Source: Escherichia phage PGN6866. Taken from it: a DNA stretch of 64,000 nt. Location: sequence record MT127620; one strand, written 5' to 3'. Positions 11,901 through 64,000 of this stretch are shown here, piece by piece. The number at the start of each line of letters is the position of its first letter. Position 1 is the stretch's first letter. The notes below the pieces were generated by a model. The model searched no databases. It was given only the letters and a program-made list of their open reading frames with translations, and was not told where the DNA came from. The position numbers and the translations under genes were made by a program.

Positions 11901-11954
11901 AATGCTGCTATCAATGGTTTAACGATAGAGTTTGCTGTTGGCGGGCGGAGATAA
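8937..11954 (+). CDS. Large structural protein with several Ig-like (Big_2) domains, probable tail spike/fibre
   Basis: Repeated Big_2-like segments; 1005 aa; RBS aaggagg. Confidence 0.75.
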   Translation: MALYPIKSLGAVGVIADQAPTDLAPNAFTNAINARFVEQRVFKTGGNAPLSYVDEDKDLTPLSFVSMPFDYYSAGNSFLVVGTNKKLYKLTDESLTDISRKVATVTKKASASIKIYPVVSQIVPKESTISMNFNQTKNLEVSLLPADANNTDLIWEVSNSSYGSITVDPSDSKLATLTSFEKEGNLVVTISTANESVVAQIAVNIIDGDSGIFLSQDTVTIRKGGTTTLTAVTGKTPVTWSSNNASIVSVTPNANSLTAVITANGEGNVTITADNGTKTASCEIVSIPQIDSISLSQSDVTVSRGSQYILTATLSPANAPNQNITWTSSNPNIATVSGTSTQGTINALLAGFTEITATTEEGNRVAVCTVRVDLAGRTMRTSAMAFAAPVSESVETQEEEVVTPPESEETVYFAEPTSGIDTSGMYEGNNFYDYSNVNDIEGFARASLLATPLSSVTLDVVSASLDVGEEIVITATASPEGDYSYQWSVDKTGYVSTTSVTGKSIKLVALRKGEINVTCTVSQMTQKDYDAFDDYPWYHAVISNCAVATTHYETPQVKEFESEYFVDLPGWGEQTVVDNDGNPSVKKFNWKCERVRSFNNRLFALNMREANASGVTTNYPLRLRWSNFANENKAPTLWDDFAYDRVVSSDLASNIVGQTQALENGYAGYIDLADSNGSLIDILPLKDYLFVYTEFETYIGSPTNNTYQPLMFKKLFNDSGILAPECVVEVEGSHFVVTQNDVILHNGATKKSIASNRVKNMLINEVCLVNPLATRVHLHQDKKEVWVLYVGPGEPKESFACTKAAVWNYEFDTWSFRTIPYAQCIGLVDPPVLERGPIWSDFQEITWDDPSIKELVWRKDATNFRQRVTIVGSFLKGFYQVDVGALDYFYDRLNDVVIEKPLEMRLERTGIDFDNVTNEWNQKHINRFRPQTTGSGTYIFEAGGSQFSNEYGHPHTSKTYTIGVDRHVSVRLNHPYLFYNVIDNDVNSNAAINGLTIEFAVGGRR

Positions 11955-11997: not shown

Positions 11998-12966
11998 ATG
12001 GGTGCAGGTGGTTTTCGTAAGAACACTGGTCGCAATAACACCACACTCCCGTACAACGTTGGGTTTCTCAATAATGTACAGGACACAGAAACATATAACG
12101 TAGCCGTATATGATGAGCTACAAAAAGTCAGTACAGCTACTAACCAAATGTTCCAAGCTATAGATGAAATTCACGAAGAGATTGATGTTCGTATTAAAGC
12201 TCTTAATGCAATGAATCTACAATTTGATGAGCTTGAGAATAGAATTACTACAGAGATAGAAACAGCTATTGCAGATATCCAAACCCAGATGGGGAACCTG
12301 TCCACTGAGGACATTTGGGATAATTCTGTTCAACCTCCTGTGAAGCTGGAAAGCACTGTATCTGGTTTTAAGACCAGCATCGAAGGTAACACAACTAAAA
12401 TTCAGACAGTAGAAGGTATTGTTAATGATCAAGGTCAAGAGATTGCTCTTGTTCAGACAGAACTACAAAATATCAACGGAAGCCTTTCTCAGTATATGAA
12501 ACTCTCTGAGTATGAAGCTACGTGGGGTATTAACTCTACAGTCAACGGAAGATATGCTGGGGTCAAGTTAACTAATAATGGTACAAACAGTCAATTCCAA
12601 GTAACAGCTAACAAATTTATTGTTGGTGATGGTAGCTCTGGGAATACTCCCTTCGTGTTTGAGGGTGGGCGAGCTAGGATGGAATTTGCTGATATAAAGA
12701 ATGTCAATATCACAACAGCTCAGATTGCTAACGCTAGAATCCAATGGGCACAGATCGATAACGTATCCATCTCCAATGCTCAGATTCAGAACTTGTCAGC
12801 GGATAAGATTACTGCTGGCTCTATGTGGGGTTCTAACTGGAGACTTACTGTTGGTGGGGACTTTGTTATGGGTGGCACAGGTGGGGCACAATTGTGGATG
12901 AATGGTAACAGAATAGACTTCTACGATGGAAGCGGTGCTCTGAGAATCAGGATAGGGAGTTGGTAA
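11998..12966 (+). CDS. Hypothetical virion protein (start moved to ATG after ggagg RBS; track ORF extends into terminator)
   Basis: Track ORF 11932-12966 overlaps the upstream terminator; ATG at 11998 has an RBS. Confidence 0.6.
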   Translation: MGAGGFRKNTGRNNTTLPYNVGFLNNVQDTETYNVAVYDELQKVSTATNQMFQAIDEIHEEIDVRIKALNAMNLQFDELENRITTEIETAIADIQTQMGNLSTEDIWDNSVQPPVKLESTVSGFKTSIEGNTTKIQTVEGIVNDQGQEIALVQTELQNINGSLSQYMKLSEYEATWGINSTVNGRYAGVKLTNNGTNSQFQVTANKFIVGDGSSGNTPFVFEGGRARMEFADIKNVNITTAQIANARIQWAQIDNVSISNAQIQNLSADKITAGSMWGSNWRLTVGGDFVMGGTGGAQLWMNGNRIDFYDGSGALRIRIGSW

Positions 12967-12967
12967 T

Positions 12968-13999
12968 ATGGCATACGGAATATGGACACAACCAGTAGGG
13001 CCGGGGCCAGCAACCCCCGCTCCCTTATTTATTGATAGCGGAAGCACTTTCCCTCAGTTCAAGAATAGTATAAGAGGGAGTTTTAACTTTAATGGGGCTG
13101 GGAGATCTTTCCCTATTAGTGGATGGGATGGCAGTGGTCAGATAGTTATTGTTCCTACCGGTTCTTTATGCTGGCAATGGGAAGTCCCTCCTAACCTAGT
13201 TCCTGATGTTTATTGTGTGAATAATATCTACGTAGAAAACAGTTCCTCTTTTAGAGTTACTCTGAATCAGAACCCCGGCAGTAACCCCTTGTTTGACTGT
13301 GGGTTCAACGTATATCAAATATGGCCTAGAGCGGATAGGAATTACGGAATTACCTTTTCTAATACAGCAGACTACTTCTCGATATCTGATAGTGGGGTCG
13401 TCGGTCAATGTATTTGGGCTTGGCAGGGGACCATAAACAATGCCCTTCAGATACCAAATATCGGTGGGTTCAATATGACCAATGCTGTTGTGTTTGCTAA
13501 TTGGTCTGATGGAGGGATAGGACTATCTTATACTTCTGATGACAGGGTTATTCGTGTTTATCAGAACAGACCTTACATAAACGGCAACACTAATGAGGGT
13601 GGTTCTGTGTTTGCTAGAGTTGCAGTATTCTGCAATGGAGCAGGAGTTCCGGAACATAATGGAGGTTTGAATATTTACTCTCCGGGTACCACGCAATGTG
13701 TCTTCTCTACTAACAGAACACCTTTCACTGTTGATACTTTTATAGGCTCAGGAGGTGGTAACACAGGAATGGCATACCCTATGATACCTCTTACCTCTGG
13801 AATAGGTGCGATAAAAGGCCAAGGCAGTGGATGGAGATATCAGCAAATGAGATCTCACACAATGAGTGGTTCTACGATAGGAACGGGCTATGGAAGGTAT
13901 TTATTTCAGTGGGATCAGAATTACGACCTAGGAGCTGATACTGTAGTTAATTTATCAGTTCCTGTAATAAATGCAGCTAAGGTTTTTGCTGGACTATAA
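12968..13999 (+). CDS. Hypothetical virion protein (343 aa)
   Basis: ORF translationally coupled to upstream gene. Confidence 0.6.
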   Translation: MAYGIWTQPVGPGPATPAPLFIDSGSTFPQFKNSIRGSFNFNGAGRSFPISGWDGSGQIVIVPTGSLCWQWEVPPNLVPDVYCVNNIYVENSSSFRVTLNQNPGSNPLFDCGFNVYQIWPRADRNYGITFSNTADYFSISDSGVVGQCIWAWQGTINNALQIPNIGGFNMTNAVVFANWSDGGIGLSYTSDDRVIRVYQNRPYINGNTNEGGSVFARVAVFCNGAGVPEHNGGLNIYSPGTTQCVFSTNRTPFTVDTFIGSGGGNTGMAYPMIPLTSGIGAIKGQGSGWRYQQMRSHTMSGSTIGTGYGRYLFQWDQNYDLGADTVVNLSVPVINAAKVFAGL

Positions 14000-27025: not shown

Positions 27026-27288
27026 TATTCTATTCCACGCTCTTTCAGAGCTTCTAACAATCCGTTGTGATTGGCAGCACATTCTGTGTACTGGTCCTGA
27101 TACCACTCCAACGTAGTGGCTAGTGCTTTTCCTTGAGCACTTTCTAAAAGAGGCAGGTCAACCCTACATTCAGCTTTTAGGTTTGTTGGTAAGGGCATTG
27201 ATTGCCTGCTGTTGTCGCTCATTGAACAAGCTGACATACTCATCACTAGCGCAGACATTATAAAAAACTGGTTTAGTTTTCTCATAAT
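27025..27288 (-). CDS. Candidate o-spanin (Rz1-like lipoprotein) overlapping the i-spanin gene in another frame
   Basis: Signal peptide with lipobox-like MSAC followed by Pro-containing region; start overlaps 27170-27520. Confidence 0.5.
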
Positions 27289-35242: not shown

Positions 35243-35692
35243 TCAACTCTCTTCTAGTATAATCCTGTACATTGCTTCCTGAGCATCTTTCATATCTACA
35301 TATGGACCAAGCACCTCACTATCTTTTCTGATGAACCAATCACCTTCTTTGAATATCAGAGATACGTGAACATCTTTATTATTTGCTTTGACTGCTCGCC
35401 CCCATGCTGGGTTATGTCGGGATAAATTATCAATATGACAATTATCAGTGCGCCCATCCAGATGGTGTAAATAAGATTGAGGCCACTGGCCTGTCTCTTT
35501 ATACCATACGGCTTTCTTCAATTCAACAATGCCACATGGTAGTCCTATGTATAGGATATTAGGCTGTAAGCTAAAATTATACCACTTAGATGTGAAAGGG
35601 ATTAGAGGTTCCCTTTTGGTGAAAAACATCGGCCCCTCTCGAATGTATTCTAGACTATCTATACACTTCAAAATCTTTTCACTATAAAGCAT
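35243..35692 (-). CDS. HNH homing endonuclease with AP2-like DNA-binding domain
   Basis: HHLDGRTDNCHIDNL (HNH_3-type) motif plus C-terminal AP2-like segment. Confidence 0.7.
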   Translation of the reverse strand: MLYSEKILKCIDSLEYIREGPMFFTKREPLIPFTSKWYNFSLQPNILYIGLPCGIVELKKAVWYKETGQWPQSYLHHLDGRTDNCHIDNLSRHNPAWGRAVKANNKDVHVSLIFKEGDWFIRKDSEVLGPYVDMKDAQEAMYRIILEES

Positions 35693-36432
35693 TAACTGTT
35701 TACCTTTTCCATAGCTTTAACAATAGCTTTACAGAAACCAGAACGAACAATGTCATCTGATTCGCCGTCTACAATCTCAGCAAACTCATACAGATCGTGT
35801 TCATCAATAAAGTTAGTAGCCCAAGTAAGACCGCTCTCACGACCACGCATATCATGCTGGTTAGTATCACCCATGCAGAACAGCTGAGAGGTTTCTCCCA
35901 ATCGAGTCATGATTGAGAAGGCTTCATCTTTAGTGGTGTTCTGGAACTCATCAACAATAACAATAGCATCATTGAAAGAACGACCACGGAGATATTCCAG
36001 AGGTACGAACTCAATGTTACTGTTACCGAGCTGGCATTCATAGAACCCCTTACCGTATCGCTGAGTAATAACATCAATGATAGGCATCAGGTACGGTTCA
36101 AACTTCTCACGCATTCCTCCCGGAAGTAACCCAAGAGAGTTGCCCATGCCGACAGAAGGGCGACTCAGAATGATCTTCTGAATCTTACCGCTCTTCAGTG
36201 CATCAATAACTGTGGAAGTGATTACAAAGGTCTTACCACAGCCCGCAGGAGCGTCTGTGAACACAACTTGTTTAGTCTTAATAGCATTGAGTAGCTCAGA
36301 CTGAAACTGGTTCTGAGGGACTACAGGCTTTGCTAAAACCACCTCTTCATACTCTCGCTTACCTTTACGAGTAACAAGTGCTTCCCGACGAAGGTCTTTC
36401 CGTGATTCTTTCCGTGATTGACGACGACTCAT
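35692..36432 (-). CDS. phoH: PhoH-like ATPase
   Basis: Walker A APAGCGKTF and overall PhoH pattern. Confidence 0.85.
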   Translation of the reverse strand: MSRRQSRKESRKDLRREALVTRKGKREYEEVVLAKPVVPQNQFQSELLNAIKTKQVVFTDAPAGCGKTFVITSTVIDALKSGKIQKIILSRPSVGMGNSLGLLPGGMREKFEPYLMPIIDVITQRYGKGFYECQLGNSNIEFVPLEYLRGRSFNDAIVIVDEFQNTTKDEAFSIMTRLGETSQLFCMGDTNQHDMRGRESGLTWATNFIDEHDLYEFAEIVDGESDDIVRSGFCKAIVKAMEKVNS

Positions 36433-56957: not shown

Positions 56958-57212
56958 CTACGAAGTTAAGATGATTTCAGCCTTAATAAACTTCTCACCA
57001 ACAACCATATCACCAGAGATGACACGTAGTTCTCCAGTGCCTAGGTTAACAGCTCCAGCAGGTTGACAACCCCTGCTTTTAGCTGTCATCATATAAACCT
57101 TTTGATTTTGGCACTCTTGGAGAGTGAACACATCTGACATATTTAGATCTCTGACGCGGAGGATTTTTTCCTCTTTGTCTTTAACTTTAATGTTAATAAT
57201 GCTCATATGCAC
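56958..57212 (-). CDS. Small protein, member of 8-copy paralogous family
   Basis: Shared pattern L..L..G.VF ... VNL.TG ... V. Confidence 0.5.
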   Translation of the reverse strand: MHMSIINIKVKDKEEKILRVRDLNMSDVFTLQECQNQKVYMMTAKSRGCQPAGAVNLGTGELRVISGDMVVGEKFIKAEIILTS

Positions 57213-57457
57213 TACTCCTGAACCACTGACATACGAATCATTTCTACCTGATCATCAAGACCTTTAACAGATAACACACCTGTGGAAAGGTTTACCACAG
57301 GAACCCAACCACTGGCTATACGGATGTTACCAGAAGCATTTTCAACCCTCATGTAATACTGAGGAGAGGCACTTCCGTTCTGAACCACGAAAGGGTTTCC
57401 GGGAATGATTGTTTCCAATCGTACCGTATTATCCTTTTTCTTTGGGATGATTTTCAT
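57212..57457 (-). CDS. Small protein, paralogous family member
   Basis: Same family pattern. Confidence 0.5.
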   Translation of the reverse strand: MKIIPKKKDNTVRLETIIPGNPFVVQNGSASPQYYMRVENASGNIRIASGWVPVVNLSTGVLSVKGLDDQVEMIRMSVVQE

Positions 57458-57705
57458 TGCGTATTATCCACCAAAAGTTCTGCTGATACAGGAACAACCT
57501 GACAACGACCAAGAGGGGCTGAAACAACCCCATCACCTAGCCGGAGAGTAGGTATCCGGTTATCTGGGATTTTGATGTTAGGACTTAAGGTAACAATCCC
57601 TTTCACATAAAGATCTTCATTGTGTGGGAATTTAAACACAGAACCATTAGCTAGAGAGCTTAGCTCTACTGCTTCTACTTCCTCTTTCTTATATGTGATT
57701 TTCAT
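57454..57705 (-). CDS. Small protein, paralogous family member
   Basis: Same family pattern. Confidence 0.5.
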   Translation of the reverse strand: MKITYKKEEVEAVELSSLANGSVFKFPHNEDLYVKGIVTLSPNIKIPDNRIPTLRLGDGVVSAPLGRCQVVPVSAELLVDNTQ

Positions 57706-59099: not shown

Positions 59100-59321
59100 C
59101 TAATAAACTAAACCTACAGCCTTTGCATCAGGTTGAGGGACTACCTTTGCGCTAGGGCGATAACCATCCACTGAACCGTTCCAAAGATTGACACAGGTGA
59201 TATATCCATCGTTTATGATGTCTGTTTTAATCCAGAAGTGTTTATCATGACCAAAAATACTTCCGTTTGGCAGCGTGGACAGCTCAACGGTTTTAAGGGA
59301 CTGCTTAGAGTCTAGTTTCAT
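59100..59321 (-). CDS. Small protein, paralogous family member
   Basis: VELSTLPNGSIF ... CVNLWNGSV pattern. Confidence 0.5.
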   Translation of the reverse strand: MKLDSKQSLKTVELSTLPNGSIFGHDKHFWIKTDIINDGYITCVNLWNGSVDGYRPSAKVVPQPDAKAVGLVY

Positions 59322-59578: not shown

Positions 59579-59860
59579 TTACCACTCCTTACCGGTTGTT
59601 GTTACAGAACCACCACACCACTGCGCATCGGATAAGGTTTTAGTCTCCTCATCTACTGCTGCACCATTCAGGCATGAGATACCACTGTAACGCATATCAA
59701 TTTCACCAGAAGGAACCTTCTCGCCCTTATGCCAGCGAGAAACACAAACACCTTCCACTGCTACTGCACACCATCCATCAGGACGGCTCTGTACGCAGCC
59801 TGTAAGGGCTATGCAGACAAGGAAGATACAGATTAAGGATATTACACCACCCCAACTCAT
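59579..59860 (-). CDS. Small lipoprotein (candidate superinfection-exclusion or envelope-targeted protein)
   Basis: Signal peptide with lipobox ALTGC; RBS aggagg. Confidence 0.55.
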   Translation of the reverse strand: MSWGGVISLICIFLVCIALTGCVQSRPDGWCAVAVEGVCVSRWHKGEKVPSGEIDMRYSGISCLNGAAVDEETKTLSDAQWCGGSVTTTGKEW

Positions 59861-60000
59861 AACTACCTCCTATTTGATTTGGTGGACTATCTGGAATCGA
59901 ACCAGAAGCTCACTAAGAAAGTAATTCCCACTGTTATAAAAGCACTTGCCTCAACAGGGATACACTAACTCTGGTGCCGCACCCATACTAGCCCTAAATG

Positions 60001-60076
60001 TGGTGCGCCCTACAGGACTCGAACCTGTAACCAATAGCTTAGAAGGCTACTGCTCTATCCATTGAGCTAAGAGCGC
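60001..60076 (-). tRNA. tRNA-Arg (anticodon UCU), CCA encoded
   Basis: Manual fold: acceptor GCGCTCT/AGGGCGC, D-arm GCTC/GAGC, anticodon stem GTAGC/GCTAT with loop CTTCTAA, T-arm ACAGG-TTCGAGT-CCTGT. Confidence 0.85.
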
Positions 60077-60256: not shown

Positions 60257-60508
60257 TCAAGCACAAGCAGGGAGTGTGATGATCTTATACTTACCATCAA
60301 ACTCTCCAAATAAACCTAAGAATGTAGGACTGTAAGTACCAGTACAAACAAACTCATCAAACAGTGCGTTATAACTAGGCTTGATCTTCCAAGCCCATAC
60401 ATAGCCCATCTTATCGATTGCAATGTAACGAGTGTTCAGAGGAACAGTCATCATCACACTGTCAACTTCGATCACTTTAGTGATTGGTGCAGCTTGAAAG
60501 TTTTTCAT
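60257..60508 (-). CDS. Small hypothetical protein
   Basis: ORF. Confidence 0.5.
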   Translation of the reverse strand: MKNFQAAPITKVIEVDSVMMTVPLNTRYIAIDKMGYVWAWKIKPSYNALFDEFVCTGTYSPTFLGLFGEFDGKYKIITLPACA

Positions 60509-60738
60509 TATATAACCACCAATTTTAACGTTGCTTTATATTCTGTGACTGGAGCATCACCTGCAAATGAGAGCATGTGAGCGGGACAAGGTAGTCGCAC
60601 AGCTCGACCACCTGCAATCTTCATATAGAAACTCTTTTTATCATCAAGAAGATTGTCATCCAGTGTGAAGATGGACCCGACGGTCAGATCTCTGTATATC
60701 TTTTTAGTCGGTTTCGAAGAGTCTAGAATTATGTTCAT
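60508..60738 (-). CDS. Small protein, paralogous family member
   Basis: RDLTVGSIF ... pattern. Confidence 0.5.
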   Translation of the reverse strand: MNIILDSSKPTKKIYRDLTVGSIFTLDDNLLDDKKSFYMKIAGGRAVRLPCPAHMLSFAGDAPVTEYKATLKLVVI

Positions 60739-60950: not shown

Positions 60951-60985
60951 TAATTAAAACAACAAAGGCTGCCCGAAGGCAGCCT
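60951..60985 (-). terminator. Rho-independent terminator (aggcugcc-uucg-ggcagccu + U-rich tail on minus strand)
   Basis: Perfect 8-bp stem with UUCG loop. Confidence 0.6.
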
Positions 60986-60989
60986 CTCT

Positions 60990-61687: not shown

Positions 61688-61906
61688 TTACTTTTGAGTC
61701 AAATACAAATCAGGGCGAGGCATAACAGTGGTTGATGGATTGAAATTACCAACATAACCAGTGCTTAGATTGGCAGCCCTACGTAGTCCATTAGAGAGAT
61801 CGTCATCTAGCATCAGCCAGAATTTTTGATCATAAGAGAAAACATCTCCCCCTTTAAGGTCTTCCACATTTGCATATTTAGGAGTCTCAACTACTTTAAT
61901 TTCCAT
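61688..61906 (-). CDS. Small protein, paralogous family member
   Basis: VEDLKGGDVF ... ANLSTG pattern. Confidence 0.5.
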   Translation of the reverse strand: MEIKVVETPKYANVEDLKGGDVFSYDQKFWLMLDDDLSNGLRRAANLSTGYVGNFNPSTTVMPRPDLYLTQK

Positions 61907-62164
61907 CTACTTACCCTTGTTGGTAATAATAACATCATGAAGAAGAACAATCTTGCTTTTCGAGCTAAGCTTAAGGACTTGCTTATTTGTCAGACTAAGG
62001 ACGACACAACCACCATCAGAAGGTTTAGTCTCCTCGACCTGTGATTTGAACAACTGAACAACCATGTAGAAATCTGCCCGTGTTTCCCTGATTTGGAATA
62101 CATCTCCAATTTTGAGATCACCAACACATAGAGATGGTTCATTTACCTTCAAATCAATCTTCAT
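61907..62164 (-). CDS. Small protein, paralogous family member
   Basis: VGDLKIGDVF pattern. Confidence 0.5.
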   Translation of the reverse strand: MKIDLKVNEPSLCVGDLKIGDVFQIRETRADFYMVVQLFKSQVEETKPSDGGCVVLSLTNKQVLKLSSKSKIVLLHDVIITNKGK

Positions 62165-62414
62165 CTTTAGCCTCTATGTTGGTTATGTGGAGATCACTGC
62201 GTACTTGGCAAACTTCGTCCCGTTTAAAAGGCATGAGCTTTCCAGTTACCACATCAACACAGTTGACATAATTGTCTGCGTACAATGTGTCGGTTCTAAT
62301 GTAAAGAGAATCTTTACGCTCAAATAGAACGCCCGGCTTCATGTTATTTAAGCGAAGCATTGTACGATCGGATTTAATATTAACTTTCACTGTTAATCTC
62401 CTGCTGCTTAGCAA
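62154..62414 (-). CDS. Small protein, paralogous family member
   Basis: LRLNNMKPGVLF ... VDVVTG pattern. Confidence 0.5.
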   Translation of the reverse strand: MLSSRRLTVKVNIKSDRTMLRLNNMKPGVLFERKDSLYIRTDTLYADNYVNCVDVVTGKLMPFKRDEVCQVRSDLHITNIEAKDED

Positions 62415-62876: not shown

Positions 62877-63317
62877 TTATTCCCTAGAGCTATTATCGAA
62901 CACTAAATCACCACAATACATAGGATTGGCATACCATTTTGGCACCCCTTCGCTCTTACTCTGAAAGTAAGTCCCACTGTACAGAGGAACATAATTCTTC
63001 TTAAGGGCACGTTTAGCTAGCCGCTCGCTTTCTCCAATGGCTTGCTTAGTCATCGGATTTTTATCACGAATCAGCTTTACATAACGTTTATAAGGTTTCT
63101 CCTGTTTTAATAGTACCGGAATCCACTCAAACTGGTTCTTTTGTCTTATCACCTGTTCAGCGGTCAGTTTTCGTTGGGCCATTCTATTTATCACGGTATC
63201 CGCAACTAAAGCCTTACATGCGGTTGGCTGGTTCCCTGCCTCATAATAAATAGTCAATGTCAACATTAGCTGTGCCGTTGTTATCAGAACTTGATACCTC
63301 CTATTTTGTTGTTTCAA
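62877..63317 (-). CDS. Cell wall hydrolase, SleB-like (Hydrolase_2 family)
   Basis: LTIYYEAGNQ...VADTVINRMA...QKNQF pattern. Confidence 0.6.
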   Translation of the reverse strand: MKQQNRRYQVLITTAQLMLTLTIYYEAGNQPTACKALVADTVINRMAQRKLTAEQVIRQKNQFEWIPVLLKQEKPYKRYVKLIRDKNPMTKQAIGESERLAKRALKKNYVPLYSGTYFQSKSEGVPKWYANPMYCGDLVFDNSSRE

Positions 63318-63376: not shown

Positions 63377-64000
63377 TTACCACTCGTAACTTACACCAGC
63401 GCCCAGAACAGCGTCACTCTCTGAAGTCATTGCCACTGATGCTTTAGTTACTACGTTTTCATTGAAACGAGCACTAACACCAACAGCAAGAGCAGATTCA
63501 CCATCGTAAGCACCTACCCCAGCACCAACAGAGAAAGCAGATCCTTGACTTACTTGCGGGATGTTAGCCATTGCAGCCACGCCAGAAATACCAGCAGAGG
63601 CATGATCACGGTTACGGTCTACTTGTTTTTGCAAAGAAGCAAAACGTTTGTTGGTGGATTGTTCCAGAGCTTTGATGGATTTGGCGTTAGCATTAACGGC
63701 AGACATATCTGCATCTTTACCATTTTTGCCATTTAATCCGTCAACGCCATTCAAGCCTGCTGCACCAGTTAGGCCAGTTTCGCCTTTCTTACCATCTGCA
63801 CCAGAATCACCTTTTTCACCTTGAGCGCCATCTTTACCATCAATGCCATCTTTACCATCAATGCCATCTTTACCATCAATGCCATCTTTACCATCAATGC
63901 CATCTTTACCATCAATGCCATCTTTACCATCAATGCCATCTTTACCATCAATGCCATCTTTACCATCAATGCCATCTTTACCATCAATGCCATCTTTACC
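63377..64000 (-). CDS. Collagen-like (Gly-X-Y) repeat protein with YadA-type C-terminal anchor domain; N-terminus beyond window
   Basis: Frame is open upstream of the track TTG start and reads continuous G-X-Y triplets; C-terminus AGISGVAAMANIPQ...SVGAGVGAY...AVGVSARFNEN...GAGVSYEW. Confidence 0.6.
   Translation of the reverse strand, partial: GKDGIDGKDGIDGKDGIDGKDGIDGKDGIDGKDGIDGKDGIDGKDGIDGKDGIDGKDGAQGEKGDSGADGKKGETGLTGAAGLNGVDGLNGKNGKDADMSAVNANAKSIKALEQSTNKRFASLQKQVDRNRDHASAGISGVAAMANIPQVSQGSAFSVGAGVGAYDGESALAVGVSARFNENVVTKASVAMTSESDAVLGAGVSYEW
63826..64000. repeat. Perfect 18-bp tandem repeat (atcaatgccatctttacc, ~10 copies, continues past window end)
   Basis: Identical units; encode (GKDGID)n on the minus strand. 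Confidence 0.9.

What the first reader, a model, noticed from the sequence alone, without database searches (positions are those of the whole stretch)
59579..59860. Early lipoprotein gene, candidate superinfection-exclusion factor
A 93-aa protein with a clear signal peptide and lipobox (ALTGC) sits among early genes with a strong RBS. Small phage lipoproteins that block the phage's own receptor are a known exclusion mechanism.
Basis: inference. Interest (0 to 1): 0.35.

Follow-up and report, generated by a model that had tools for sequence, protein, structure and literature searches.

The report
Phage lipoprotein that likely masks LptD
This small early gene of a phiEco32-like coliphage encodes a lipoprotein related to Rtp45, a protein shown by structure to block the essential LptD outer-membrane channel against phage attachment, and the same genome also carries a relative of the LptD-binding tail protein, which suggests LptD is this phage group's unknown final receptor.

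Summary
The ORF is real: 59579..59860 on the minus strand, 93 aa, AGGAGG five bases before the ATG, hydrophobic leader and lipobox LTG|C22. The window is a Kuravirus (phiEco32/SU10-like podophage). The gene is the ortholog of phiEco32 gp106, annotated 'putative phage lipoprotein', in the early leftward cluster.

It belongs to Pfam PF24052 (E=1.7e-36). It is a sequence homolog (E=8e-16) and predicted fold homolog (Foldseek TM 0.75, the only significant PDB hit) of Rtp45. Rtp45 is the superinfection-exclusion lipoprotein seen by cryo-EM on the periplasmic face of LptDE (PDB 9RPS). The lipid cysteine, the Cys30-Cys38 disulfide and the hairpin core are conserved. Kuraviruses add a variable insert bracketed by two cysteines at the predicted hairpin tip.

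The same window also encodes a homolog of the LptD-binding receptor-binding protein (12968..13999; Pfam DUF6453, E=1.9e-23; Foldseek hit to 9RPT_C, E=4.6e-13). It lies directly after a tail-needle gene that carries the lambda-J tail-tip domain. I found no paper linking Kuraviruses to LptD.

Main caveat: SU10 gp19 was not detected in virions in two proteomic studies. Nothing here has been tested experimentally in this phage.

The parts
59579..59860 (-). CDS of the 93-aa prolipoprotein (ortholog of phiEco32 gp106 / SU10_0104); Rtp45-family (PF24052) member
59866..59871 (-). Shine-Dalgarno AGGAGG, 5 nt upstream of the ATG
   Evidence: sequence read directly
59798..59860 (-). Signal peptide, residues 1-21 (no K/R n-region, hydrophobic core, lipobox LTG); the Cys22 codon at 59795..59797 would be the lipidated N-terminus. 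Val at +2 (not Asp) predicts outer-membrane sorting
   Evidence: helix 3-21 in the model. The sorting rule comes from established E. coli Lol knowledge
59735..59797 (-). Conserved core, residues 22-42 (C22, RPDGW, C31...C39). It aligns with Rtp45 Cys20 and the Cys30-Cys38 disulfide, and with the strand (Rtp45 30-35) that pairs with LptD 318-323
59615..59674 (-). Kuravirus-specific variable insert, residues 63-82, bracketed by Cys63 and Cys82. It forms the distal part of the predicted long beta-hairpin (strands 52-69 and 76-92; 63 and 82 are cross-strand partners)
   Evidence: insert identity 54%, min 11%, versus core 78% among Kuravirus variants
12968..13999 (+). 343-aa homolog of the LptD-binding RBP of small siphophages (Rtp44 / RBP-Oekolampad); equals SU10 gp19; candidate cognate RBP
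   Evidence: PF20051, 83.7 bits; 9rpt_C E=2.8e-9; Foldseek 9rpt_C E=4.6e-13, TMt 0.81; phrog_1265, same as Rtp44
11998..12966 (+). Tail needle (SU10 gp18; the mechanical ORF starts at 11932). Its C-terminal part carries the lambda-J 'Phage_Tail_Tip' domain also found at the C-terminus of the J-like proteins next to which siphophage RBPs are encoded
   Evidence: (BLASTP to Rtp43 905-1107, E=6e-6)
60004..60076 (-). tRNA-Arg(UCU) upstream of the lipoprotein gene (context)
27028..27285 (-). Separate bona fide o-spanin lipoprotein. It shows the finding is not the phage's spanin

Best explanation
The gene encodes a small outer-membrane lipoprotein of the Rtp45 family, made early in infection by a phiEco32-like podophage.

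Shown by sequence, predicted fold or published data:
- It has a lipoprotein leader, with Cys22 aligned to the lipid cysteine of Rtp45.
- It keeps the Rtp45 Cys30-Cys38 disulfide pair and the conserved hairpin residues.
- Its predicted fold matches only Rtp45 among solved structures.
- By synteny it lies in the early gene cluster.

Inferred:
- After Sec export, lipidation and Lol sorting to the inner leaflet of the outer membrane, it docks on the periplasmic face of the LptDE lipopolysaccharide translocon.
- There it pushes its long beta-hairpin up the LptD lumen and displaces extracellular loop 4. In Kuraviruses the hairpin is lengthened by a variable insert stapled by an extra disulfide.
- An LptD-binding receptor-binding protein can then no longer dock. 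This protects the infected cell, and later its debris, from LptD-dependent phages.

The same genome encodes a homolog of that RBP (gp19-like, 12968..13999) directly after a tail needle with a J-type tip domain. The most likely target of the exclusion is therefore the Kuravirus itself, with LptD as its so far unidentified terminal receptor.
For: - Family membership: PF24052 at 124.5 bits, E=1.7e-36; phrog_4281, shared with Rtp45.
- Homology to Rtp45: phmmer to PDB 9rps_D E=7.9e-16; BLASTP to Rtp45 44% identity, E=6e-20; reciprocal tblastn with Rtp45 recovers Kuraviruses.
- Conserved positions: G21, C22, G29, W30, C31, C39, G46, G52, D55, R57, G60, G84, E92 and W93 are invariant across podophage and siphophage members.
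- Fold: AF2 model pLDDT 79, whose only significant PDB match is 9rps_D (prob 1.0, TMt 0.75).
- Rtp45 mechanism: published cryo-EM (PMC12685063).
- Early class by synteny.
- RBP homolog in the window: tblastn E=2e-13 to 3e-10; PF20051 E=1.9e-23; 9rpt_C E=2.8e-9; Foldseek E=4.6e-13; phrog_1265 shared with Rtp44.
- The needle gene upstream shares PF09327 and BLASTP similarity with the C-terminus of Rtp43/J.
- Co-occurrence: lipoprotein in 96 and gp19 in 98 Gordonclarkvirinae records. The distant relative 7-11 keeps the nozzle but lacks needle, gp19 and lipoprotein together.
- The closest outside relatives of both proteins are in Klebsiella Webervirus phages.
- The secondary receptor of phiEco32-like phages is described as unknown.
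Against: - No binding or exclusion experiment exists for any Kuravirus protein.
- SU10 gp19 is listed as 'in virion: no, detected by MS: no'. It is also absent from a shotgun proteome that did detect the 3-copy needle.
- The lipoprotein gene lies 46 kb from the RBP homolog, whereas in Drexlerviridae and Dhillonvirus it lies directly upstream of the RBP gene. The two genes are also about 10 kb apart in Webervirus.
- Lipoprotein and gp19 alleles assort independently among 44 Kuraviruses (rho 0.22, p=0.14).
- The signal peptide has no basic residue.
- The authors of 9RPS report that AlphaFold predictions of Rtp45 alone and of its complex are unreliable, so the model-based hairpin geometry is tentative.
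- Published models assign Kuravirus adsorption to O-antigen and an undefined cell-surface target of the short fibres.
Confidence: 0.62

Rival explanations
1. Heterotypic exclusion only. The lipoprotein binds LptDE as Rtp45 does, but its role is to keep competing LptD-dependent siphophages (Rtp-like, Dhillonvirus, Queuovirinae) out of the infected cell. The Kuravirus itself does not use LptD, and gp19 is not a virion RBP.
For: gp19 was not detected in SU10 virions in two studies. The lipoprotein and gp19 genes are unlinked and their alleles are shuffled. LptD-dependent siphophages are common coliphages of the same habitats.
Against: gp19 is conserved in essentially every Gordonclarkvirinae genome that has the lipoprotein. 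It sits in the late structural operon, 2 nt after the needle gene, which carries a J-type tip domain. Needle, gp19 and lipoprotein are all missing together from phage 7-11.
Confidence: 0.2
2. Envelope or LPS-export modulator. By plugging LptDE the lipoprotein throttles insertion of new O-antigen-bearing LPS, or weakens the outer membrane of the infected cell. This would reduce adsorption of progeny to infected cells or debris, or aid lysis. Blocking an RBP would not be its main role.
For: Rtp45 sits in the LptD lumen between LptE and LptM. Kuraviruses depend on O-antigen for adsorption. The Kuravirus hairpin is predicted to be longer. The same early region encodes other envelope-directed proteins: a YadA-anchor protein and a cell-wall hydrolase.
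Against: No evidence that Rtp45 impairs LptDE function was found in what was read of the structure paper. Existing LPS would persist through a roughly one-hour infection cycle. This explanation does not account for the conserved RBP homolog.
Confidence: 0.08
3. An Rtp45-like scaffold retargeted to another outer-membrane protein, or to an unrelated periplasmic function. Homology to Rtp45 would then not predict LptD binding.
For: Only 44-49% identity to Rtp45-type proteins, plus a 17-35 aa insert absent from them. Phage receptor modules are often retargeted.
Against: Residues invariant across the family lie in the core and hairpin that contact LptD in 9RPS. Every siphophage context examined pairs the family with a DUF6453 RBP, a type tied experimentally to LptD. 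A DUF6453 protein is also present here.
Confidence: 0.08
4. It is the o-spanin (Rz1-type lysis lipoprotein).
For: It is a small outer-membrane lipoprotein with periplasmic cysteines.
Against: The phage has its own curated overlapped i-/o-spanin pair elsewhere (phiEco32 35272-35768). The o-spanin is present in this window at 27028..27285 (96.5% identity). The finding's neighbours are not i-spanins. It lies in the early cluster and has no spanin family hit.
Confidence: 0.01

Closest known systems
Rtp45 (phage Rtp) and the SE lipoproteins of LptD-targeting small siphophages (e.g. bas01_0029, Oekolampad bas18_0026); Pfam PF24052, PHROG 4281; structure 9RPS
   Same: Homologous over the whole mature protein. 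Shared features: lipid Cys, the RPDGWC...C disulfide motif, the hairpin residues (G46, G52, D55, R57, G60) and the C-terminal (K/R)EW. It belongs to the same Pfam and PHROG families, and the predicted fold matches 9rps_D. A DUF6453 RBP homolog is present in the same genome.
   Different: The host phage is a podophage (Kuravirus), not a siphophage. The gene lies in the early cluster, 46 kb from the RBP homolog, rather than directly upstream of it beside gene J. The protein carries a variable 17-35 aa insert closed by an extra Cys pair at the predicted hairpin tip. The leader lacks basic residues. Function is untested.
Llp of phage T5 (blocks FhuA from the periplasmic side)
   Same: The concept is the same: a small early outer-membrane lipoprotein binds the periplasmic face of the phage's receptor and makes its extracellular loops unfit for the RBP.
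   Different: No detectable sequence or fold relationship: no Llp hit in the PDB sequence search at E<=10 or in Foldseek. The receptor is a TonB-dependent transporter and the effect is allosteric. Rtp45 instead displaces a loop physically.
Cor (T1, phi80, N15, HK022), the FhuA-directed exclusion lipoprotein
   Same: A small phage lipoprotein linked to an RBP locus that blocks adsorption.
   Different: No Pfam match other than PF24052 at E<=10. The target is different (FhuA). Some database records mislabel PF24052 members as 'Cor' (H62).
Rz1-type o-spanins
   Same: Small outer-membrane lipoproteins with periplasmic cysteines.
   Different: A lysis function paired with an i-spanin. The phage has its own pair.

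Membership tests
Rtp45-type phage SE lipoprotein (Pfam PF24052 / PHROG 4281) | Significant full-length match to the family profile above the curated cut-off | tested here: met
   PF24052: 124.5 bits vs cut-off 27, E=1.7e-36, profile 1-80/80. phrog_4281 E=7.8e-36; Rtp45 hits the same two families.
Rtp45-type phage SE lipoprotein (Pfam PF24052 / PHROG 4281) | N-terminal lipoprotein signal with the lipobox Cys aligned to Rtp45 Cys20 | tested here: met
   G21 and C22 are invariant in alignments A1 and A2. The PROSITE core pattern is met, but there is no K/R in the n-region.
Rtp45-type phage SE lipoprotein (Pfam PF24052 / PHROG 4281) | Conserved disulfide pair (Rtp45 Cys30-Cys38) | tested here: met
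   C31 and C39 are invariant. The disulfide is described.
Rtp45-type phage SE lipoprotein (Pfam PF24052 / PHROG 4281) | Fold with a long beta-hairpin as in 9RPS chain D | tested here: met
   AF2 model with strands 52-69 and 76-92. Foldseek against PDB gives 9rps_D as the only hit with E<=1e-3, TMt 0.75. This is a prediction only; the 9RPS authors warn that AF models of Rtp45 are unreliable.
Rtp45-type phage SE lipoprotein (Pfam PF24052 / PHROG 4281) | Gene directly upstream of the DUF6453 RBP gene, beside the J tail-tip gene | tested here: not met
   The lipoprotein is at 59.6 kb and the RBP homolog at 13 kb on the opposite strand. The linked arrangement is seen in Rtp, Bas01 and Dhillonvirus. 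The genes are also unlinked in Webervirus. This is a contextual feature, not a molecular one.
Rtp45-type phage SE lipoprotein (Pfam PF24052 / PHROG 4281) | A DUF6453 (LptD-type) RBP encoded in the same genome | tested here: met
   Window 12968..13999: PF20051 at 83.7 bits, 9rpt_C by sequence and by fold. Found in 96 vs 98 Gordonclarkvirinae records.
Rtp45-type phage SE lipoprotein (Pfam PF24052 / PHROG 4281) | Binds the periplasmic face of LptDE and prevents RBP binding or infection | not testable with these tools
   This needs expression, adsorption and EOP assays and co-purification. It is known only for Rtp45.
T5 Llp family | Sequence or fold similarity to Llp | tested here: not met
   There is no Llp chain among PDB sequence hits at E<=10 or Foldseek hits at E<=10.
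Cor family | Match to a Cor profile | tested here: not met
   A Pfam scan at E<=10 returns only PF24052 and a spurious 0.23 hit. NCBIfam returns nothing.
o-spanin (Rz1) | Encoded with, overlapping or embedded in an i-spanin gene of the lysis system | tested here: not met
   The neighbours are small soluble early proteins. The real o-spanin is at 27028..27285.
LptD-binding RBP family (DUF6453; Rtp44 / RBP-Oekolampad), for the companion gene 12968..13999 | Profile match, fold match and presence on the virion tip | tested here: inconclusive
   The profile and fold criteria are met. Virion presence is contradicted by published SU10 proteomics and cannot be tested here.

The most novel reading that the evidence does not exclude
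Kuraviruses (phiEco32, SU10, ES17 and relatives) are LptD-dependent podophages. After O-antigen binding by the long fibres, a low-copy gp19 protein docked on the J-like tip of the tail needle binds LptDE as the terminal receptor. The early lipoprotein, with its lengthened, disulfide-stapled and hypervariable hairpin, then plugs LptD from the periplasm to exclude further infection, and possibly also curbs LPS export. This would be the first LptD-targeting module outside siphophages. It would also give a function to two conserved 'hypothetical' genes of a phage group used in therapy studies.
Probability: 0.4. Interest if true: 0.7.

Novelty: new member of a known kind. Interest (0 to 1): 0.5.

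Why it matters
LptD is essential, conserved and surface-exposed, so phages and proteins that bind it are of interest for phage steering and as templates for LptDE inhibitors.

The terminal receptor of phiEco32-like phages is still undefined. Because lptD is essential, knockout screens cannot reveal it.

The lipoprotein together with the gp19 homolog turns that open question into a few simple experiments.

The natural length and sequence variation of the hairpin insert (93, 98, 99 and 108 aa variants) is a ready-made series of LptD-lumen ligands.

If the link fails, the gene remains an ordinary family member, annotated since 2008 as a putative lipoprotein.

Tried and rejected
- Co-variation of lipoprotein and gp19 alleles across 44 Kuraviruses as a test of functional coupling gave no signal (rho 0.22, p=0.14; every lipoprotein class pairs with several gp19 classes). 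This is neutral, because an SE protein acts on the receptor and not on the RBP.
- The o-spanin reading is rejected.
- Homology to T5 Llp or Cor was not found.
- NCBIfam has no model for either protein.
- A word-based homolog search from the window protein gave only 10 close relatives. An exhaustive profile search found only 20 clusters at 50% identity in 1.84 billion proteins, so the family is small and phage-restricted.
- The primary papers on phiEco32 timing and proteome (PMC3275717, PMC2587145) and on Rtp (PMC1367250) are not held. The temporal class therefore rests on later papers that summarise them. The original genetic evidence for Rtp45 exclusion rests on the citing paper and my own recollection.
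- The table of Rtp45-LptD polar contacts is an image and could not be read, so contact-by-contact conservation was not scored.
- No strong sigma-70 promoter is predicted just upstream, and a terminator-like hairpin lies at 60964..60987. The transcript origin is unresolved.

Full report
**Observation.** The finding's coordinates hold a real gene on the minus strand.
- The ORF is 59579..59860 with an ATG start and encodes 93 aa, MSWGGVISLICIFLVCIALTGCVQSRPDGW....
- AGGAGG lies five bases before the ATG. The stop is followed after one base by the ATG of the next gene.
- The leader has a strongly hydrophobic core and the lipobox L-T-G-C22. It fits the PROSITE lipobox core pattern but has no Lys or Arg in the n-region, which is atypical and shared by all orthologs.
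- A loose six-frame lipobox scan of all 64 kb returned only this ORF and one antisense artefact. The signal is therefore not background.

**What the window is.** The region is 90-95% identical to Kuravirus podophages such as SU10, phiEco32, ES17 and Bas91.
- The gene is the ortholog of phiEco32 phi32_106 ('putative phage lipoprotein') and SU10_0104.
- It lies in the leftward right-arm cluster. That cluster is the experimentally defined early class in phiEco32 and comprises CDS 69-125 in SU10.
- A tRNA-Arg(UCU) gene sits just upstream.

**What the protein is.** It belongs to Pfam PF24052 'Phage lipoprotein family' (124.5 bits, cut-off 27) and to PHROG 4281.
- Against all PDB sequences its only real hit is 9RPS chain D (E=7.9e-16).
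- 9RPS is the cryo-EM structure of Shigella LptDE-LptM with Rtp45, the superinfection-exclusion lipoprotein of siphophage Rtp.
- In that structure Rtp45 binds the periplasmic face of LptD near strands 5-8, between LptE and LptM. It has a Cys30-Cys38 disulfide, pairs residues 30-35 with LptD 318-323, and sends a long hairpin up the lumen. The hairpin lifts extracellular loop 4 by up to 20 Å, so the RBP cannot bind.
- BLASTP between the window protein and Rtp45 gives 44% identity, E=6e-20. Rtp45 used as a query finds Kuraviruses in return.

**Anatomy.** In alignments of podophage and siphophage members the invariant positions are G21, C22, G29, W30, C31, C39, G46, G52, D55, R57, G60, G84, E92 and W93.
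- These positions cover the lipid cysteine, the disulfide and the hairpin framework.
- Kuravirus proteins differ by an insert of 17-35 residues, bracketed by an extra cysteine pair (C63, C82), at the place where Rtp45 reads GIKGSSGS.
- The insert is the most variable part among Kuravirus variants: mean identity 54% (minimum 11%) against 78% for the core. Variants of 93, 98, 99 and 108 aa exist.
- An AlphaFold2 model (pLDDT 79) predicts a leader helix (3-21), short strands at 31-35, 38-44 and 47-50, and a long hairpin at 52-69 and 76-92. In that hairpin C63 and C82 face each other.
- The model's only significant PDB match is 9rps_D (probability 1.0, TM 0.75 on the target).
- Val at +2 predicts outer-membrane sorting (established Lol rule).

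**Distribution and context of the family.** tblastn finds the lipoprotein in 384 phage records.
- About 97 are Kuravirus-type. The rest are small siphophages: Drexlerviridae including Rtp and AugustePiccard/Bas01, Webervirus, Dhillonvirus and others.
- In Rtp, Bas01 and a Dhillonvirus the gene lies directly upstream of a 311-321 aa gene beside the J tail-tip gene. That gene is the RBP locus tied to LptD by resistant lptD mutants and by the 9RPT structure.
- The family is small. An exhaustive profile search of 1.84 billion representatives found 20 clusters.

**The companion gene.** Searching the window with those RBPs gave an unexpected result.
- ORF 12968..13999 (+, 343 aa) matches Rtp44, bas01_0028 and the Dhillonvirus RBP over nearly their full length (E=3e-10 to 2e-13).
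- It scores 83.7 bits on Pfam DUF6453 (cut-off 25; Rtp44 hits the same family).
- It hits PDB 9RPT chain C, the Oekolampad RBP bound to open LptDE (E=2.8e-9).
- It shares phrog_1265 with Rtp44.
- Its AF2 model (pLDDT 85, pTM 0.86) has 9rpt_C as its only significant PDB match (E=4.6e-13, TM 0.81).
- It starts two bases after the tail-needle gene (SU10 gp18). The C-terminal part of the needle carries the lambda-J 'Phage_Tail_Tip' domain and aligns with residues 905-1107 of Rtp43/J (E=6e-6).
- So the three parts of the siphophage LptD module (J-type tip, DUF6453 RBP, PF24052 lipoprotein) are all present in this podophage.
- Among Gordonclarkvirinae the lipoprotein is in 96 records and gp19 in 98.
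- The distant relative 7-11 keeps the nozzle protein (E=2e-67) but lacks needle, gp19 and lipoprotein together.
- For both proteins the nearest relatives outside Kuravirus are in Klebsiella Webervirus phages, where the two genes are also about 10 kb apart.

**Evidence against, and limits.**
- SU10 gp19 is tabulated as not in the virion and not detected by MS. It is also absent from an earlier shotgun proteome that detected the three-copy needle. Either it is a very low-copy or easily lost tip protein, or it is not structural.
- Lipoprotein and gp19 alleles assort independently.
- Published models of Kuravirus entry invoke O-antigen and an undefined surface target. None of the papers I could search links these phages to LptD.
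- AlphaFold is reported to mispredict Rtp45, so the hairpin geometry is tentative.
- No experiment addresses this protein.

**Mechanism proposed.**
- Early expression is followed by Sec export, then Lgt/LspA/Lnt processing at Cys22.
- Lol then delivers the protein to the inner leaflet of the outer membrane.
- There it docks on LptDE, inserts its hairpin into the lumen and displaces the extracellular loops.
- LptD-binding RBPs are then blocked.
- Sequence, predicted fold and published data show the lipoprotein features, family membership, conserved structural residues and the early position (by synteny).
- Inference covers LptDE binding, the exclusion phenotype and which phages are excluded.

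**Rivals.** Four alternatives were weighed.
- Exclusion of competing LptD siphophages only.
- Modulation of LPS export or envelope.
- Retargeting of the scaffold to another protein.
- An o-spanin role. This one is refuted by the curated spanin pair and its copy at 27028..27285.

**Comparison and novelty.** The protein works like T5 Llp and Cor but is unrelated to them. It is a member of the Rtp45 family, and the one contextual criterion it fails is gene linkage to the RBP. The gene has long been annotated as a putative lipoprotein, so I rate the item as a new member of a known kind. The added value is the testable proposal that LptD is the missing terminal receptor of Kuraviruses.

Noticed in passing
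window 12968..13999 (+): A conserved 'hypothetical/membrane protein' (SU10 gp19) is a sequence and predicted-fold homolog of the LptD-binding RBP of small siphophages (DUF6453; 9RPT chain C). It lies right after the tail-needle gene. It was never detected in SU10 virions.
   Followed up: yes
window 63377..64000 (-), runs off the right end: An early-region gene encodes (GKDGID)n collagen-like repeats followed by a YadA-like outer-membrane anchor (PF03895, E=6.9e-20). It corresponds to phiEco32 phi32_119, annotated 'tail protein'. A trimeric-autotransporter-like protein made early could be a second surface-remodelling or exclusion factor.
   Followed up: partly
window 62877..63317 (-): A SleB-type cell-wall hydrolase domain (PF07486, E=2.4e-7) is encoded next to the YadA-anchor gene in the early cluster, away from the lysis cassette.
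   Followed up: no
window 59880..59994 (-): A 115-nt tRNA-like element lies between tRNA-Arg and the lipoprotein SD. It has an acceptor stem, a T-arm GGUUCGAUUCC and an encoded CCA. It is present in SU10 and absent in phiEco32. Default ARAGORN and Rfam do not call it; relaxed ARAGORN calls a 66-nt tRNA-Arg(tct) within it. Fold z-score is -1.96.
   Followed up: partly
window 57212..57457, 57454..57705, 59100..59321, 60508..60738, 61688..61906, 61907..62164, 62154..62414 (all -): At least seven paralogous early proteins of about 72-85 aa share an N-terminal 'MK..v.L..l..G.vF' motif and are scattered around the lipoprotein gene. None has a Pfam match.
   Followed up: partly
window 27028..27285 (-): An o-spanin lipoprotein (96.5% identical to the curated NJ01 o-spanin) lies in the middle-gene region, far from the holin and endolysin genes in the late operon.
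   Followed up: yes
window 60964..60987 (-): A strong terminator-like GC hairpin with a T tract lies inside the early cluster, about 1.1 kb upstream of the lipoprotein gene. No good sigma-70 promoter is predicted between it and the gene, so expression would need read-through or an unrecognised promoter.
   Followed up: no
Kuravirus genomes in the phage collection: Both the lipoprotein (three length classes) and gp19 (five identity classes, down to 45%) are strongly polymorphic. They are reassorted among otherwise similar genomes, which indicates frequent recombination at both loci.
   Followed up: yes
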